From the sequence record NC_054913.1: 64,000 nt of DNA, one strand, 5' to 3'. A program made the position numbers and the translations under genes. Below are positions 2,885 to 63,702 of the stretch, in pieces (the stretch's first letter is position 1; each line of letters starts with the position of its first letter). The notes beneath the pieces are model-generated. The model worked only from the letters and a program-made list of their open reading frames with translations, did not search any database and was not told where the DNA came from. Source of the stretch: Escherichia phage F2.

Positions 2885-2913
2885 AGCCCCTTCCTTACGG
2901 TTGGGGCTTTTTG
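2885..2913 (+). terminator. rho-independent terminator hairpin
   Basis: agcccc...ggggct stem followed by T-run. Confidence 0.6.
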
Positions 2914-2923
2914 GCATCTATCA

Positions 2924-2952
2924 GTTTACTTCTCCTCAGGTTGTGTTATAGT
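2924..2952 (+). promoter_or_regulatory. T4-type early promoter (GTTTAC-N17-TATAGT)
   Basis: -35 gtttac 2924-2929, -10 tatagt 2947-2952. Confidence 0.55.
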
Positions 2953-2979
2953 AGTCCTTACTTACTAGAGGAGAACGTT

Positions 2980-3159
2980 ATGTCACGTAAAGAAAAAATT
3001 TCTAAGTTAATGTTTTTGATTGAAGAGTACGCTAATGCGGTATCTGATTGGGAAAATGCTCATGGTTGCGAAGATGGAGACATCGACATTAACAGAGCTA
3101 TGAAAAAGATGGCTGATACGCACACCGAATTGCAAATGTACGTTAACGAGATTATGTGA
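2980..3159 (+). CDS. hypothetical protein
   Basis: ATG preceded by GAGGAG RBS; ORF track 2911..3159. Confidence 0.5.
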   Translation: MSRKEKISKLMFLIEEYANAVSDWENAHGCEDGDIDINRAMKKMADTHTELQMYVNEIM

Positions 3160-3402: not shown

Positions 3403-3430
3403 AGTCCTACCAAAACAAATGGAGAACAAA

Positions 3431-3541
3431 ATGAAACTTTTGCTTATCGCTTATGTTGTAGTACAATACAATTATCCGATGTTTACTTATAACATGGTAA
3501 ACGGCATAGTGAATCTTATTGAAACGAGTATGGTAAAATGA
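3431..3541 (+). CDS. small hypothetical protein (36 aa)
   Basis: ATG with GGAGAA RBS; below ORF-track size cutoff. Confidence 0.3.
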   Translation: MKLLLIAYVVVQYNYPMFTYNMVNGIVNLIETSMVK

Positions 3542-7612: not shown

Positions 7613-7639
7613 AGACCTATCAACTACTGGAGGTAAAAC

Positions 7640-11881: not shown

Positions 11882-12307
11882 ATGAATATTTCTGAAACTC
11901 GCGGTAAATGGTTCAAGATTGTTAAAGAAGATGAAGAACTACAAGTCAAGTTTCCTGAATTAAAGAAAGGAACAATCATCAAGGTAATTGGTACTACTAC
12001 CGAAGATGGTTATGGTGCCCATGGCATTATCGAAGTGATGTTGAACACAGGTGAGAAACTTTGCATCTATGACCGTGATACTTCTCTTTGGTGCTTCTGG
12101 GAATCACATTCAATAGATGAACTCGAAGAAATTGATTCGGCTGATATTGCGGATGTGCTAGGTAGTAAACTTGGCGAATTCGAAGGTGAACGAATTTCTT
12201 ATGCATTAGCTAAATTAGCCGGACAAGAAAATAACGACGGCTATGAAGGTAACCTGATGCAAGCAGCCGCAGAATACATTGAATATTTAGAAAGACGTTT
12301 AAGTTAA
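11882..12307 (+). CDS. hypothetical protein
   Basis: ATG 11882 right after upstream stop; ORF track 11744..12307. Confidence 0.5.
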   Translation: MNISETRGKWFKIVKEDEELQVKFPELKKGTIIKVIGTTTEDGYGAHGIIEVMLNTGEKLCIYDRDTSLWCFWESHSIDELEEIDSADIADVLGSKLGEFEGERISYALAKLAGQENNDGYEGNLMQAAAEYIEYLERRLS

Positions 12308-12342
12308 TAAATACCCTTATCTATTTAAGGTAAGGGTTTATC

Positions 12343-12816
12343 ATGTTATTATCAGGCGCAAAATATAAAGAAGAAAAACAAAAATTTTATGATGCACAGA
12401 ACGGTAAGTGTCCTATTTGCCACCGTGAATTAGACCCTGATGTTCAAGGTAACCATCTTGACCACGACCACGAATTAAACGGGCCAAAAGCAGGTAGAGT
12501 TCGTGGGTTACTCTGTAATCTGTGCAACGCAGCAGAAGGCCAAATGAAGCATAAGTTCAACCGTTCTGGTCTTAAAGGCCGTGATGTCGACTACCTAGAA
12601 TGGCTTGAAGCTCTTCTCGCTTATTTGAAACAAGATTATTCTGATAATAATATCCATCCTAATTTTGTTCCAGACAAAACTAAAGAGTTCTCAAGACTAG
12701 GTAAAGAGGAAATGATGACCGAGATGCTTCAAAGAGGATTTGAATATAATGAATCAGATACTAAAACACAATTAATAGCTTCATTCAAAAAGCAGCTTAG
12801 AAAGAGTTTAAAATGA
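12343..12816 (+). CDS. 49: recombination endonuclease VII (Holliday junction resolvase)
   Basis: 157 aa, near-identical to remembered T4 gp49 (CPICHRELD...HLDHDHELNGPKAG). Confidence 0.95.
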   Translation: MLLSGAKYKEEKQKFYDAQNGKCPICHRELDPDVQGNHLDHDHELNGPKAGRVRGLLCNLCNAAEGQMKHKFNRSGLKGRDVDYLEWLEALLAYLKQDYSDNNIHPNFVPDKTKEFSRLGKEEMMTEMLQRGFEYNESDTKTQLIASFKKQLRKSLK

Positions 12817-17921: not shown

Positions 17922-18070
17922 TTCTTTATCTCATTTCTAATATAATCCATTGGAATCTTCACTTCACTATCTCCTTGTGCCCCTCTCAAATCAAAAATAT
18001 TTTTCATAAAACAGTTTACATCCTCGATAGATATGTTAAGATTAAACCATCTGCTATAGAGGAAAACAAA

Positions 18071-18941: not shown

Positions 18942-19138
18942 ATCCTGAAAATATTGTGTCATGGCAACTTCGTGAAGAACGTGCCGAATTCTTTGCCAAT
19001 ATGAAACTCAACGGCGTTGAGGATGAAGACTTTTTACGTTGGTTCTGGATTTACAAATACAAAGAATGTCAACATGCTGTGCTATTGACTTGCGCAACTA
19101 TGTACGAAGGCTGGAAAGGCGCTAAAAAGTTCGGTTAA
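18938..19138 (+). CDS. hypothetical protein
   Basis: ATG 18938 overlapping upstream stop. Confidence 0.5.
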   Translation: MNPENIVSWQLREERAEFFANMKLNGVEDEDFLRWFWIYKYKECQHAVLLTCATMYEGWKGAKKFG

Positions 19139-42118: not shown

Positions 42119-42123
42119 TAAAA

Positions 42124-42150
42124 GGAGACTTCGGTCTCCTTTCGGGGTTT
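42124..42150 (+). terminator. terminator hairpin (UUCG tetraloop)
   Basis: ggagacttcggtctcc + T-rich. Confidence 0.6.
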
Positions 42151-42205
42151 ACATCTTCCTCTAGGCATGATATGATGTACTTACACAAACCAAGAGGAAA
42201 ACACT

Positions 42206-42580
42206 ATGAATATGTCTCAAGCAATTTTTACTGCAATCACCGAAAACACAACTGTTGAAGTAGCTTCTCCGCTGGCAACCTACGTTATTCTTGCTCCTAA
42301 AACCATTGTATCTCGTATGGAAAACATGGGCAAACGTATCGTACAAATTGTTGGAGCCGGAAATCAAAAACTTGATTATCTGCGAACCATCAAAGCTTAT
42401 GAACATTTCCAACTCGAAAAAGGTTCTCCTATCCAGGTAGAACTCGTAAATGGTGATATCGTTCGAGCAATGTTCCATCATTTCTATGCATTGAATGACC
42501 CATCTAAAGCGGTTCGTTTAATTGCATACGACGCAAACCAAAACGAAATCAACGCAGATGTATCTAAATTACGTTTTTAA
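42206..42580 (+). CDS. hypothetical protein
   Basis: ORF with AGAGGAAAA RBS. Confidence 0.5.
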   Translation: MNMSQAIFTAITENTTVEVASPLATYVILAPKTIVSRMENMGKRIVQIVGAGNQKLDYLRTIKAYEHFQLEKGSPIQVELVNGDIVRAMFHHFYALNDPSKAVRLIAYDANQNEINADVSKLRF

Positions 42581-42609
42581 GTTTACTTCTCCAGCAGTTG
42601 TGTTATTAT
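42581..42609 (+). promoter_or_regulatory. T4-type early promoter
   Basis: gtttac 42581-42586, tattat 42604-42609. Confidence 0.6.
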
Positions 42610-42635
42610 AGACCTATCAACTACTGGAGAACAAA

Positions 42636-42953
42636 ATGAAAACCATTGATTGTAAAGCAGAATTTAAGATTTTTTATCACGGTTCAAGCAGTTCAGCTAA
42701 CATTGAAAACATGCTTTGTCCTCCTGAGGAAACAGGAGTTCTGTCTGAAACTGGACGTAAGAAAAACTTGGACCGTGTATTCTTTACCGAAGATATCGGT
42801 TTAGCAAAGATTTATGCAGGACGAGCAGCACGCTCTTATGGAGGTGAACCACGTCTCTATCGAGTAATTTCTCCGGTAGACGTAGTTCAAATGAATAATA
42901 CTAAAGGTGCTACAGTTTATCACGCTGAATGGGCATTTTGCGAGGAAATATGA
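42636..42953 (+). CDS. hypothetical protein
   Basis: ORF with GGAGAA RBS. Confidence 0.5.
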   Translation: MKTIDCKAEFKIFYHGSSSSANIENMLCPPEETGVLSETGRKKNLDRVFFTEDIGLAKIYAGRAARSYGGEPRLYRVISPVDVVQMNNTKGATVYHAEWAFCEEI

Positions 42954-43355: not shown

Positions 43356-43415
43356 CTGTTTACAAGCACCACATACTGTGTTACTATCTTTTTATCAACT
43401 ACAGAGGAAATTGAA

Positions 43416-44097: not shown

Positions 44098-44127
44098 GTT
44101 TACATTATAGATGGACTATGGTATAGT
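44098..44127 (+). promoter_or_regulatory. T4-type early promoter
   Basis: gtttac 44098-44103, tatagt 44122-44127. Confidence 0.55.
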
Positions 44128-44156
44128 AGTCCTATCAAATCAACTAAGGAGTTAAA

Positions 44157-47655: not shown

Positions 47656-47661
47656 TTAAGT

Positions 47662-47669
47662 TATAAATA
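47662..47669 (+). promoter_or_regulatory. T4-type late promoter TATAAATA
   Basis: Exact TATAAATA upstream of 47701. Confidence 0.3.
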
Positions 47670-47700
47670 CACCTGTAATTAAACAACAAAGGAGTTAATT

Positions 47701-47937
47701 ATGGGTGGTTATGTAAACATCAAAACCTTTACGCATCCTGCAGGTGAAGGCAAAGAAGTTAAAGGTATGGAAGTTTCTGTACCGTTTGAGATTTATTCAA
47801 ACGAACATCGGATTGCAGATTCTCATTATCAGACTTTCCCGTCTGAAAAAGCTGCTTATACAACGGTAGTAACTGATGCTGCTGACTGGAAGACCAAGAA
47901 CGCAGCAATGTTCACGCCTACACCAGTAAGCGGTTAA
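47701..47937 (+). CDS. hypothetical protein
   Basis: ORF with AGGAG RBS. Confidence 0.5.
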   Translation: MGGYVNIKTFTHPAGEGKEVKGMEVSVPFEIYSNEHRIADSHYQTFPSEKAAYTTVVTDAADWKTKNAAMFTPTPVSG

Positions 47938-47946
47938 ATAATTTAA

Positions 47947-47970
47947 GGAATCCTTCGGGATTCCTTTTTT
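47947..47970 (+). terminator. rho-independent terminator (UUCG tetraloop)
   Basis: ggaatccttcgggattcc + tttttt. Confidence 0.7.
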
Positions 47971-48037
47971 GTTTCTACAGTTTACAACCACTAAAAACTG
48001 TGTTAAGATATTCTTACTTACTCAAGAGGAGAACAAT

Positions 48038-49300: not shown

Positions 49301-49461
49301 AAGAGAAATTTAAAGAGAAATTCTTACTAGAAATCAAGGAAAAAGACTTTGAGATATGGTATCGAATGGTGAAAGGGTTGACATTGCTTTTTAAAGCATC
49401 CTTATTCATGTTAGAACAACCTGGCCCTGATGGGCCTTTAGTAGGAAAGCTTAAAAAGTAG
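49297..49461 (+). CDS. small hypothetical protein (54 aa)
   Basis: ATG overlapping upstream stop; below track cutoff. Confidence 0.3.
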   Translation: MKEKFKEKFLLEIKEKDFEIWYRMVKGLTLLFKASLFMLEQPGPDGPLVGKLKK

Positions 49462-49647
49462 TTTACATTCCCTCCTCTCGTGTTATGATAGGCTTATCTT
49501 TAAATGGAGGTCTATCATGACATGTCAATCTGAACTTCAAGAACGCGAATACCTAACAAAATCATTCATTTAAAAATGTTGAATTTTTAGTGTACAAACT
49601 CTTCCGATGATGATACTATACCTTTATCAACCACAGGAGAAACCTAA

Positions 49648-50256
49648 ATGTTTATGCCGTATAACGAGTGTGAAATTGAAGAAATGGTTCGTCGTGCTCA
49701 AAACCCAGAATATCAAGATGTATTGCAGTATGAAATTGATAGTCAATTCAGCGACATTGAACAAAGTGTACTGTGGCAGTGTATGGAAAACAAGCCAGAC
49801 TGTATTCAACAGGAGTTAAGTTCAATCGTTCGTAGAAATTGGACGTCTTCTGTTCCTGAGACAATGTATCGTGGAATCTCTAAGAAAACTATGGCCACAC
49901 TCGATGATAAAGGCATTGGTAGTATTATTAAATTTGACAGAGTAATGAGCTTCAGTCCGGTGTTTGGTGTAGCACGTAACTTCGCTTCATATAATTTTTA
50001 TGGAACATTTAATATGTTCTGCATCAAAGATGCACCATTTGCTTTCAACTTCCGTGAACATATGCTTAATATGATTCTGGCTGCACCATCTTGTGAGTTC
50101 AATGGAGCTTTCCCTGAAGCGACAAGACGGTCTAATGCTAGACTTATATCTGACGAATGTGAATTTATGCTCCCTATAGGGACTACACTGCGTGTAGATT
50201 CTATTATTCAAGATGGACGTTATACAATCTGGAATCTGTCTATTGTTGGTTACTGA
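49648..50256 (+). CDS. ADP-ribosyltransferase (ModA/ModB-like)
   Basis: R-S-ExE triad candidates: MYRGIS, SFSPVFGVA, DECEF; about 200 aa as T4 Mod proteins; GGAGAA RBS. Confidence 0.65.
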   Translation: MFMPYNECEIEEMVRRAQNPEYQDVLQYEIDSQFSDIEQSVLWQCMENKPDCIQQELSSIVRRNWTSSVPETMYRGISKKTMATLDDKGIGSIIKFDRVMSFSPVFGVARNFASYNFYGTFNMFCIKDAPFAFNFREHMLNMILAAPSCEFNGAFPEATRRSNARLISDECEFMLPIGTTLRVDSIIQDGRYTIWNLSIVGY

Positions 50257-55019: not shown

Positions 55020-55048
55020 GTTTACTTCTCCTCTAGATGTGTTACTAT
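55020..55048 (+). promoter_or_regulatory. T4-type early promoter
   Basis: gtttac 55020-55025, tactat 55043-55048. Confidence 0.55.
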
Positions 55049-55076
55049 AGACCTATCAAAACAAGAGGAGAATATT

Positions 55077-55304
55077 ATGAAACGTCAAATCATTAAAAAC
55101 GTAACTACTGATTCAAACATCGATGAGTTTGAAGATGTTCTGTTTAATCCTGATTTAGTTGTTGTACAGAAAAACTGGACCGAATTTTTATGCTACACCG
55201 AAGTGGTTTACGTTTACGAAAAACTCGGTGATGAAATGCCTATCTATGGCATCTTCCGTGAAATCACTGAAAACGGTACAACTTATTGGAAGGAAACTTA
55301 CTAA
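55077..55304 (+). CDS. hypothetical protein
   Basis: ATG 55077 with AGAGGAGAA RBS. Confidence 0.5.
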
Positions 55305-63646: not shown

Positions 63647-63676
63647 GTTTACAACTAAGTAGGACTATGATATAGT
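63647..63676 (+). promoter_or_regulatory. T4-type early promoter
   Basis: gtttac 63647-63652, tatagt 63671-63676. Confidence 0.55.
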
Positions 63677-63702
63677 AGTCTTATCTAAAAGAGGATAACA
63701 TC

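What the first reader, a model, noticed from the sequence alone, without database searches (positions are those of the whole stretch)
42588..42630. Inverted repeats bracketing early promoters pair an upstream anti-SD with the downstream Shine-Dalgarno
At several early promoters the sequence just after the -35 (e.g. tctccagcagttg 42588-42600) is complementary to the RBS region of the next gene (caactactggaga 42618-42630); the same is seen at 2930-2937 / 2968-2975 and 55027-55034 / 55065-55072. Read-through transcripts from upstream would fold to hide the RBS, whereas transcripts started at the embedded promoter would lack the left arm. This mirrors the known T4 mechanism at genes e, 49 and I-TevI.
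Basis: partly seen in the sequence, partly recalled or inferred. Interest (0 to 1): 0.5.

Follow-up and report, generated by a model that had tools for sequence, protein, structure and literature searches.

The report
Early promoters that hide the next ribosome site

Summary
The window is an RB69/JS09-like Mosigvirus early region. Each left arm starts directly after the -35 of a GTTTAC-N17-TAnnnT early promoter, and each right arm covers the Shine-Dalgarno (SD). Three more window promoters do the same (18015, 42148, modB remnant 49462). In modelled read-through RNA these SD cores rank 1st, 2nd and 4th most occluded of 103 gene starts; promoter-initiated RNAs are open. Across 78 non-redundant promoters from about 49 T4-type phages only a subset has such arms (perfect complement of 7 nt or more: 7 observed, 0.95 expected). 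Covariation is strong at modB (95.5% paired, 0/500 shuffles, sense strand favoured 16/16) and motB.2 (three lineages, different arms). Caveats: the cef site is a recombinant formed by deletion of motB.2, and the 42588 extension carries uncompensated mismatches in relatives. Best reading: translational masking of read-through transcripts, the early-promoter analogue of e/soc/49/I-TevI, set in PeSL-like cassettes. A RegB-shielding role is a serious rival. No experiment was possible.

The parts
42581..42586 (+). -35 element GTTTAC of the early promoter for the ORF040c homologue/dmd unit. The upstream ORF's stop codon TAA lies at 42578-42580.
42587..42600 (+). Left (anti-SD) arm ttctccagcagttg, in the promoter spacer directly after the -35. 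C42595 is the single mismatch.
   Evidence: The arm is a perfect 13/13 complement in relatives L011, L012 and L199.
42604..42609 (+). -10 element TATTAT, preceded by gtgt. It lies in the hairpin loop. The predicted start site is about 42616.
   Evidence: The start site is inferred from spacing and has not been mapped.
42618..42631 (+). Right arm caactactggagaa, containing the SD GGAG (42626-42629). GGAGAACAAAA (42626-42636) matches the strong RegB site consensus GGAGRAYARAA exactly.
42636..42953 (+). Gene whose ribosome site is masked: a 105-aa homologue of RB69 ORF040c with no Pfam family, followed by dmd.
2885..2912 (+). Intrinsic-terminator-like hairpin (agcccc...ggggct followed by ttttt) just upstream of the 2924 promoter. 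This is the T4/PST-type PeSL layout.
   Evidence: literature
2924..2952 (+). Early promoter: GTTTAC 2924-2929, left arm ttctcctcag 2930-2939, -10 TATAGT 2947-2952.
2965..2975 (+). Right arm ct-a-gaggagaa containing the SD. The ATG at 2980 starts a 59-aa DUF7438 protein (2980-3159).
   Evidence: The arms are invariant in three Mosigvirus orthologues while the loop and flanks vary.
55020..55048 (+). Chimeric early promoter: GTTTAC 55020-55025 plus left arm ttctcctct 55026-55034, both derived from the motB.2 promoter, and -10 TACTAT 55043-55048 derived from the cef promoter.
55064..55072 (+). Right arm agaggagaa containing the SD of cef (ATG 55077; cef 55077-55304).
18014..18063 (+). A further promoter of the same kind, upstream of the gp55.6-like gene (ATG 18071): GTTTAC 18014-18019, left arm tcctcgatag 18021-18030, -10 TAAGAT 18037-18042, right arm ctatagagga 18054-18063 (9 of 10 pairs).
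42147..42199 (+). A further promoter of the same kind, upstream of the ORF041c homologue (ATG 42206): GTTTAC 42147-42152, left arm ttcctct 42156-42162, -10 TATGAT 42171-42176, right arm agaggaa 42193-42199. A terminator-like hairpin at 42121-42147 precedes it.
49461..49519 (+). modB-type promoter hairpin: GTTTAC 49461-49466, spacer anti-SD ccctcc 49470-49475, -10 TATGAT 49484-49489, left arm atgataggctt 49485-49495 (the -10 plus the start-site region), right arm aggtctatcat 49508-49518 (SD through the AU of the ATG at 49517). In this phage modB itself is an 18-codon remnant (49517-49573).

Best explanation
These are promoter-embedded translational masks on sense-strand RNA. A subset of the phage's sigma-70-type early promoters carries an anti-SD tract, either in the spacer directly after the -35 or, at modB, in the -10/start-site region. 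That tract is complementary to the SD (and at modB to the AUG) of the gene 25-45 nt downstream. RNA polymerase arriving from an upstream promoter transcribes both arms, so the long (delayed-early or middle read-through) RNA folds into a hairpin that hides the ribosome-binding site. Polymerase starting at the embedded promoter begins downstream of the left arm, so that short immediate-early RNA has an open site. The gene is therefore translated mainly from its own promoter's transcript and falls silent once early promoters are shut off, even though read-through RNA continues across it.

Shown here: the arms, their position relative to the promoter elements, predicted folding, enrichment over chance, and covariation in related phages. 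Inferred: start sites, actual folding in vivo, and the effect on translation.
For: Anatomy at six window promoters.

MFE structures of read-through RNA contain the anti-SD/SD helix at 2925, 18015, 42148, 42582 and 55021, and a -10/AUG helix at 49462. Promoter-initiated RNAs are essentially unstructured.

SD-core P(unpaired) in a -120..+40 context is 0.00-0.16 for these genes against a mean of 0.42 for 90 other + strand genes. They rank 1, 2, 4, 15, 16 and 23 of 103 (Mann-Whitney p=2.7e-5).

Long perfect complements are enriched over shuffles in 78 non-redundant promoters: 7 observed against 0.95 expected at 7 nt or more, and 3 against about 0 at 9 nt or more. Independent long cases with different arm sequences include L214 (13/13), L215 (10/10) and RB69 motB.2 (12/12).

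modB family: 13-pair helix, 95.5% of cells paired, 4 pairs and 18 cells with compensatory change, 0/500 shuffles reach the covariation score, slid registers 58% paired or less.

Arm-swap chimeras: motB.2 native -19 to -24 kcal/mol against -7 to -16 swapped; modB native -15.2 against -8.8 swapped. motB.2 SD is 0-2% unpaired in read-through RNA and 87-93% unpaired in promoter-initiated RNA.

The sense strand folds better than the antisense strand in 16/16 modB lineages and in T4-type motB.2, because of G-U pairs. This argues for RNA rather than a DNA cruciform.

The TCTCC core after the -35 is conserved across genera at the ORF040c promoter while the adjacent spacer varies, and L224 changes both sides together.

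The established late-promoter versions at soc and gene 49 occur in the same window with the same geometry (literature).
Against: No start site is mapped for this phage and no translation data exist.

With dinucleotide shuffles of the promoter segment, SD occlusion is clearly significant only at 49462. It is marginal at 2925, 18015 and 42582, and absent at 55021.

Most early promoters lack specific pairing: the mean own-versus-cross percentile is 0.49.

At 42588 the window, RB69 and ST0 each carry a different uncompensated mismatch. That is about what neutral drift would give at this shallow divergence.

The 55021 pairing arose by recombination and is not conserved for cef.

Loops are large (17-30 nt) and stems short (8-14 bp).

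At 2925 and 42148 a terminator-like hairpin lies just upstream, so little read-through may reach the mask.

At 42582 and 55021 the upstream stop codon is only 6-10 nt from the left arm, so terminating ribosomes could open the helix.

The perfect repeats at the three named sites are strand-symmetric and give no evidence of their own for RNA over DNA.
Confidence: 0.5

Rival explanations
1. RegB shield. The helix exists mainly to protect the internal GGAG of long polycistronic transcripts from the phage RegB/S1 endoribonuclease, which cuts exposed GGAG in early ribosome sites. Short promoter-proximal RNAs are cut and inactivated, while read-through RNAs stay intact to serve downstream genes. Translational masking would then be a side effect or a co-function.
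For: [quoted passage not shown] It gives the strong-site consensus GG*AGRAYARAA. The site-1 SD, GGAGAACAAAA (42626-42636), matches it exactly. The same string follows the ORF040c and Dhakavirus motB.2 promoters. The SDs at 2970 and 55067 contain GGAGAA.
Against: T4 motB.2 has the most stable helix but its SD is GAGGAT, with no GGAG. The window's 18015 and 42148 sites have GAGGAA. The modB helix extends over the AUG, which a RegB shield would not need. The presence and specificity of RegB in this phage were not examined here.
Confidence: 0.2
2. Translational coupling device. On read-through RNA the mask is opened by ribosomes terminating at the upstream gene's stop codon a few nucleotides before the left arm. 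The downstream gene is then translated only when, and as much as, the upstream gene is.
For: The upstream stop codon lies 6 nt before the left arm at 42582 (TAA 42578-42580, arm from 42587) and 10 nt before it at 55021 (TAA 55013-55015, arm from 55026). It abuts the -35 at 49462. The stop is similarly close in the T4 and RB69 motB.2 promoters. These distances fall within a terminating ribosome's footprint (established knowledge).
Against: At 2925, 18015 and 42148 the upstream stop is 35-115 nt away, often with a terminator in between. Closeness of stop and promoter is expected anyway in about 57-nt intergenic regions. The modB left arm starts 24 nt after the stop.
Confidence: 0.1
3. No RNA function. 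The C/T-rich tract after the -35 is a promoter-context or cassette feature spread by duplication and recombination of early promoter cassettes (PeSL-type shuffling). It is complementary to the purine-rich SD only incidentally.
For: Spacer positions 2-5 are about 40% C across 188 unique promoters, whether or not long pairing exists. The three named sites share one cassette, GTTTACTTCTCC. The cef site is demonstrably a recombinant that keeps its pairing only because SD flanks are generic. The right-arm string atcaactactggag recurs without any left arm in L019, L023 and at window 7585. The same cassette precedes two different genes in one contig. Mismatches at 42588 are uncompensated.
Against: It cannot explain lineage-specific complementary extensions outside the SD: ctggtt/aaccag, catg/catg, tagatt/aatcta, cagtagttg/caactactg. 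It cannot explain the modB covariation, the own-arm preference in swaps, or the sense-strand G-U bias.
Confidence: 0.15
4. Transcription terminator or attenuator, as proposed for the stem-loops of PeSL cassettes. The hairpin would stop read-through transcription at each cassette.
For: PeSL stem-loops of RB49 reduced lacZ expression as much as a strong terminator did, and they lie between or over the -35 and -10.
Against: These helices have 17-30-nt loops, are not G+C-rich and are followed by A-rich sequence rather than a T run. The terminator scan calls none of them, while it does call separate hairpins upstream of some promoters.
Confidence: 0.03

Closest known systems
Late-promoter-embedded RBS-masking hairpins of T4 genes e, soc, 49 and I-TevI (reviewed in PMC3014915)
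   Same: A helix sequesters the SD and/or AUG in transcripts that start upstream. A promoter sits in or just before the 5' arm, so its own transcript lacks that arm and is translatable. Both soc and gene 49 show this in the window itself.
   Different: The embedded promoter here is an early sigma-70-type promoter (GTTTAC-N17-TAnnnT) and not a gp55 late promoter (TATAAATA). The predicted logic is therefore reversed in time: translation is restricted to the immediate-early transcript rather than to the late one. In the spacer-arm type the loop is large, because it holds the -10 and the start site. None of this has been tested experimentally.
PeSL (promoter-early stem-loop) cassettes of T4-type phages (Arbiol et al. 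2010, PMC2839356; Comeau et al. 2014, PMC4122927)
   Same: Short intergenic cassettes made of a strong early promoter, an inverted repeat, an SD and an ATG. They are repeated through the hyperplastic early regions and associated with indels. The window's cef promoter is a recombinant between two such cassettes, with motB.2 deleted.
   Different: Published PeSL stem-loops are compact. They lie between or over the -35 and -10 (RB49/phi1) or just upstream of the promoter (PST/T4), and they are interpreted as terminators and recombination sites. No pairing with the SD is described. Here the 3' arm is the SD itself, and the helices do not look like terminators.
RegB/S1 target sites in T4 early mRNAs (GG*AGRAYARAA; PMC3014915)
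   Same: The right arm at site 1 is an exact match to the strong-site consensus, and secondary structure is known to protect such sites.
   Different: RegB sites are defined on single-stranded RNA with no partner arm. Several helices here, such as T4 motB.2 and window 18015 and 42148, contain no GGAG.

Membership tests
Promoter-embedded RBS-masking hairpin (T4 e/soc/49/I-TevI type) | A helix sequesters the SD and/or the start codon in the longer, upstream-initiated transcript | tested here: met
   MFE and partition-function folding. SD-core P(unpaired) is 0.00 at 2980, 42636 and 55077, against a mean of 0.42 for other genes. This is prediction only.
Promoter-embedded RBS-masking hairpin (T4 e/soc/49/I-TevI type) | An internal promoter is placed so that its transcript starts within or downstream of the 5' arm | tested here: met
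   [quoted passage not shown] The start sites predicted from spacing fall 2-10 nt before the right arm. Start sites are not mapped.
Promoter-embedded RBS-masking hairpin (T4 e/soc/49/I-TevI type) | The internal promoter is a late (gp55, TATAAATA) promoter, giving late-only translation | tested here: not met
   The promoters are GTTTAC-N17-TAnnnT early type. TATAAATA motifs occur only at the soc and gene 49 controls.
Promoter-embedded RBS-masking hairpin (T4 e/soc/49/I-TevI type) | Demonstrated difference in translation between the long and short transcripts | not testable with these tools
   This needs reporter fusions, toeprinting or ribosome profiling.
PeSL cassette | A strong sigma-70-like early promoter in a short intergenic space, ending in an SD and the start codon of the next gene | tested here: met
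PeSL cassette | A stem-loop within or next to the promoter that acts as a transcription terminator or attenuator | tested here: not met
   An inverted repeat is present, but it has a 17-30-nt loop and no T run, and the terminator scan does not call it. Separate terminator-like hairpins lie upstream at 2885-2912 and 42121-42147.
PeSL cassette | Association with insertions, deletions or replacements produced by recombination between cassettes | tested here: met
   The cef promoter is a motB.2/cef cassette chimera with motB.2 deleted, and the modB cassette is retained beside a truncated gene. One cassette precedes two different genes in a single contig.
Strong RegB/S1 cleavage site | GGAGRAYARAA in an intergenic ribosome site of an early mRNA | tested here: met
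   GGAGAACAAAA at 42626-42636 is an exact match. The match is only partial at 2970 (GGAGAACGTTA) and 55067 (GGAGAATATTA). Cleavage itself was not tested.
Rfam RNA families | A match at the curated gathering score | tested here: not met
   0 matches in the whole window

The most novel reading that the evidence does not exclude
T4-type phages use a general 'own-promoter licence' for a set of immediate-early genes. An anti-SD or anti-AUG arm built into the early promoter makes every transcript that enters from upstream both untranslatable at that gene and resistant to RegB. The promoter's own transcript, by contrast, is translated and then cut by RegB. This would give a mechanistic basis for the long-standing observation that RegB cuts early mRNAs but spares most middle and all late ones carrying the same GGAG. 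It would also mean that PeSL-type cassettes carry their own translational insulation when they shuffle.
Probability: 0.25. Interest if true: 0.65.

Novelty: new variant of a known kind. Interest (0 to 1): 0.5.

Why it matters
If it is real, this extends a textbook T4 control device (RBS masking relieved by an internal promoter) from late genes to immediate-early genes. It gives a simple cis-encoded reason why some early proteins (ModB, MotB.2, the ORF040c/Dmd unit) would be made only in the first minutes, even though transcription keeps crossing their genes. It offers a testable explanation for RegB's preference for early over middle transcripts. It also adds a post-transcriptional function to the promoter/stem-loop cassettes (PeSLs), which have so far been discussed only as terminators and recombination modules. 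The modB and motB.2 hairpins occur in T4 itself, so the idea can be tested directly in the best-studied phage.

Tried and rejected
1. Pattern scans of IMG/VR. GTTTACTTCTCC-N8-GTGTTA gave a single locus. The looser GTTTACNTCTCC-N10-13-TANNNT gave 120 or more stretches, mostly in contigs whose sizes do not look T4-like. I did not use these for statistics.

2. RNAalifold on a MAFFT alignment of motB.2 promoters. The arms were aligned out of register, so the consensus structure is meaningless. I replaced it with per-lineage folds and arm-swap chimeras.

3. Mean P(unpaired) over the SD through the AUG, with promoter shuffles. This measure is diluted by the A-rich spacer, and the shuffles often regenerate CT tracts. 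I report it as evidence against, and complemented it with the all-genes comparison.

4. Reversed-spacer control. It is invalid for mirror-symmetric CT tracts such as tctcctct, so I relied on shuffles and an upstream-segment control.

5. Terminator reading of these helices. Rejected.

6. DNA cruciform or antisense reading. Disfavoured for modB and T4 motB.2 by the strand asymmetry, and undecidable for the three named sites.

7. Functional theme among the regulated genes. None found with Pfam: DUF7438, Cef and otherwise no families.

8. The MMBR 2003 T4 genome review is not in the held library. An older description of these hairpins therefore cannot be excluded.

9. One literature query failed on a term that was too short.

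Full report
**Identity of the window.** A 4-kb stretch around the finding is 98-98.5% identical to Escherichia phages PNJ-9, pEK20, ST0 and HX01. ST0 is classified as Mosigvirus JS09 in the family Straboviridae. Gene order follows the T4/RB69 early region, from sigma factor gp55 to rIIA/rIIB, and the annotated genes there are almost all on the + strand. The finding therefore lies in the prereplicative region of an RB69-like T4-type phage.

**The observation.** All three inverted repeats are present (verified).
- Site 1: ttctccagcagttg (42587-42600) pairs with caactactggagaa (42618-42631). This gives 13 of 14 pairs, with a C42595/A42623 mismatch.
- Site 2: ttctcctc (2930-2937) pairs with gaggagaa (2968-2975), 8/8. 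Two further pairs follow across a bulged base.
- Site 3: ttctcctct (55026-55034) pairs with agaggagaa (55064-55072), 9/9.

At each site the left arm begins directly after GTTTAC. A TAnnnT -10 preceded by GTGT lies 17 nt after the GTTTAC, inside the loop. The right arm contains the GGAG of the SD, 6-8 nt before the ATG. The 12-mer GTTTACTTCTCC occurs three times in the window against 0.26 expected. An independent consensus scanner calls the same promoters within the stretch it covered.

**More of the same in the window.** A relaxed scan for T4-type early promoters followed by an SD and a real ORF finds about 15 units on the + strand. These fall into three kinds of inverted repeat.
- Class A, the finding's kind: the spacer just after the -35 pairs with the SD. 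It occurs at 2925, 18015 (tcctcgatag/ctatagagga, 9/10), 42148 (ttcctct/agaggaa), 42582 and 55021.
- Class B: arms hug the -10 and the right arm lies over the start site. Examples are 3384-3392/3403-3411 and 7591-7598/7611-7618, with further cases at 44099 and 63648.
- Class C: the -10 and start-site region pairs with the SD through the AUG. This occurs at the modB promoter (49485-49495/49508-49518).

Promoters at 43359, 47981 and 53472 have none of these.

**Folding.**
- In read-through RNA (40 nt upstream of the -35 to ATG+18) the MFE structure contains the anti-SD/SD helix at all five class A sites and the -10/AUG helix at 49462. The promoter-initiated RNAs fold at 0 to -3 kcal/mol.
- A stringent control shuffles only the promoter segment while preserving dinucleotides. 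It leaves 49462 clearly significant (0/200), 2925, 18015 and 42582 marginal (0.035-0.06), and 55021 not significant. This control often regenerates CT-rich anti-SD strings, and the measure averaged over the A-rich spacer.
- A second control asks whether these ribosome sites are unusual among all genes. In a -120..+40 context, the SD cores of 42636, 2980 and 55077 are the 1st, 2nd and 4th most occluded of 103 + strand gene starts (P unpaired 0.00). The six class A/C sites differ from 90 unlabelled genes (mean 0.42) at p=2.7e-5. The sites were chosen because they show complementarity, so this test shows that such occlusion is rare, not that it is selected.
- Positive controls work. At soc (47701) and gene 49 (12343) a late-promoter motif is followed at once by a left arm that pairs with the AUG or SD region, as is known for T4 (literature).

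**Comparative evidence, breadth.** I collected 215 promoter/5'UTR units (188 unique, 78 clusters) from the window, T4, RB69 and 46 stretches of about 21 kb around gene 41 from diverse T4-type contigs.
- Spacer positions 2-5 are about 40% C, in genomes of about 18% C.
- On the 78 representatives, most spacers pair no better with their own 5'UTR than with others'. The mean percentile is 0.49, although 9 of 78 fall in the best 5%.
- Long perfect complements are strongly enriched: 7 nt or more, 7 observed against 0.95 from shuffles; 9 nt or more, 3 against about 0.
- The long cases sit in different phages and use different non-SD sequences: L214 ttcctcctagatt/aatctaggaggaa (13/13), L215 ctcctagaat/attctaggag (10/10), and RB69 motB.2 tctcctctggtt/aaccagaggaga (12/12).

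The feature is therefore real but limited to a subset of early promoters.

**Comparative evidence, covariation.**
- modB promoters. In 16 distinct sequences from at least six lineages, the -10 hexamer plus the next 7-8 nt pairs with the SD through the AU of the AUG. In T4 this is AUGAUAGCUUCUG with CGGAGGCUAUCAU, closing a 7-nt loop. On the MAFFT alignment, 95.5% of 198 cells are paired, 4 of 13 pairs show compensatory change (18 cells), no shuffle of 500 reaches the covariation score, and slid registers give 58% or less. Native left/right combinations fold at -15.2 kcal/mol on average, against -8.8 for swapped ones. The sense strand is more stable than its complement in 16/16 sequences (p=3e-5), because about 12% of cells are G-U pairs. 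This points to a sense-RNA structure and not to a DNA cruciform.
- motB.2 promoters (class A). T4-like, RB69-like and Dhakavirus-like lineages each keep an 11-17-bp helix from the spacer to the SD, but with different non-SD parts (cggt/actg, ctggtt/aaccag, catg/catg). Native combinations fold at -19 to -24 kcal/mol against -7 to -16 for chimeras. The SD is 0-2% unpaired in the long form and 87-93% unpaired in the promoter-initiated form. The T4-type helix is strongly sense-biased. Two further lineages carry a modB-like class C hairpin before the motB.2 homologue.
- ORF040c promoter (site 1). The 5-bp core TCTCC/GGAGA is invariant across several genera while the adjacent spacer columns vary. 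L224 changes both sides together (TCCTCT with GGAGGA). The 8-bp extension is specific to Mosigvirus. It is perfect in L011, L012 and L199, but the window, RB69 and ST0 each carry a different uncompensated mismatch. That is about what neutral drift would produce at this depth.
- Site 2 has orthologues only in Mosigvirus. The arms are invariant there, while the loop and flanks vary.
- Site 3 is a recombinant. Its 5' part equals the motB.2 promoter of RB69/ST0, its 3' part equals their cef promoter/5'UTR, and motB.2 is absent from the window. The native cef promoter has a class B repeat and no anti-SD arm. The pairing survives because the SD flanks of the two cassettes are alike.

**Mechanism.** Transcripts entering from upstream contain both arms and fold so that the ribosome site is hidden. 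Transcripts started at the embedded promoter lack the left arm. The result would be translation restricted to the gene's own immediate-early transcript. The steps shown here are the arms, their register relative to the promoter elements, the predicted folds, enrichment, covariation and strand bias in related promoters. The steps inferred are the start sites (from spacing), folding in vivo and the effect on translation.

**Rivals.**
- RegB shielding. The review states that structure protects GGAG from RegB and that the strong-site consensus is GG*AGRAYARAA. The site-1 SD, GGAGAACAAAA, matches it exactly. However, T4 motB.2 (GAGGAT) and the window's 18015 and 42148 sites (GAGGAA) lack GGAG, and the modB helix also covers the AUG. 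Shielding therefore cannot be the general explanation, though it may be a co-function.
- Translational coupling. This is plausible where the upstream stop lies 6-10 nt before the left arm (42582, 55021), but not at 2925, 18015 or 42148.
- Terminator role. This is not supported.
- No RNA function. A purely incidental origin (a promoter-context C/T tract plus cassette shuffling) explains part of the pattern, site 3 in particular. It does not explain the lineage-specific extensions, the modB covariation or the G-U strand bias.

**Comparison with what is known.** The closest mechanism is the late-promoter-embedded masking of e, soc, 49 and I-TevI. It differs in promoter class, and therefore in the predicted timing. 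The closest described sequence elements are the PeSL cassettes. These share the promoter/stem-loop/SD/ATG layout and the link to indels, but their stem-loops are described as compact terminators that do not involve the SD. The T4 transcription review, the post-transcriptional review and the RB69 genome paper do not mention anti-SD arms in early promoters, and two full-text searches found nothing. The 2003 T4 genome review and the older promoter papers are not in the held library, so an earlier description cannot be ruled out. Rfam has no family here.

**Verdict.** It is best filed as a new variant of a known kind, of moderate interest. The modB and motB.2 hairpins, which are present in T4 itself, are the cleanest test cases.

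Noticed in passing
window 55020-55076 (compare L007 38567-38630 and 39153-39212; L001 34560-34625 and 35148-35207): The window lacks motB.2 (525 bp in RB69 and ST0). Its cef promoter is a chimera of the motB.2 promoter (5' half) and the cef promoter (3' half). This is a deletion by recombination between two early promoter cassettes, as the PeSL model predicts.
   Followed up: yes
window 49517-49573 and 49580-49650: modB is reduced to an 18-codon remnant (MTCQSELQEREYLTKSFI*), with about 510 bp missing relative to RB69/ST0. It still has its complete promoter and hairpin. modA (49648-50256) follows with its own GTGTACA-type promoter.
   Followed up: partly
window 3384-3392/3403-3411, 7591-7598/7611-7618, about 44110-44140, about 63660-63690; T4 dmd promoter L003 20590-20620: There is a second class of inverted repeat that hugs the -10, with the right arm over the predicted start site (for example ggtaggact/agtcctacc, aggtctat/atagacct, and T4 dmd gacaagact/agtcttgtc). 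It does not touch the SD, and its function is unexplained. It is probably the stem-loop 'overlapping the -10' described in the PeSL papers.
   Followed up: partly
window 47660-47715 (soc) and 12300-12345 (gene 49): The classical late-promoter-embedded masking hairpins are present: TATAAATA then cacctgtaattaa pairing with ttaattATGggtg at soc, and TAATAAATA then acccttatc pairing with ggtaagggt at gene 49.
   Followed up: yes
window 42626-42636, 3421-3431, 48026-48036: Early-gene SDs match the strong RegB site consensus GGAGRAYARAA. GGAGAACAAAA is exact at 42626 and 3421, and GGAGAACAATA is close at 48026.
   Followed up: partly
window 2885-2912, 42121-42147, 47945-47966, about 49423-49436: G+C-rich terminator-like hairpins sit immediately upstream of early promoters. 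This is the terminator-then-promoter arrangement described for PST/T4 PeSLs.
   Followed up: partly
window 7619-7632 and 42616-42629; T4 L005 about 18950-18965; loci L019 and L023: The 5'UTR string ATCAACTACTGGAG recurs downstream of several unrelated early promoters, including ones with no complementary left arm. Early 5'UTRs therefore appear to be shared cassette sequence.
   Followed up: no
window 42636-42953; loci L011-L060: The 105-aa ORF040c homologue just upstream of dmd is conserved at 55-99% identity in 50 viral contigs, including large T4-type genomes of about 160-235 kb. It has no Pfam family and no known function.
   Followed up: partly
L217 position 19776 and L235 position 340-400 (same contig, IMGVR_UViG_3300045988_081160): Nearly the same promoter/5'UTR cassette (TATGATgacc...ggaggtcatcATGctt) precedes two different genes in one genome. 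This is evidence that whole promoter-hairpin cassettes are duplicated or moved.
   Followed up: no
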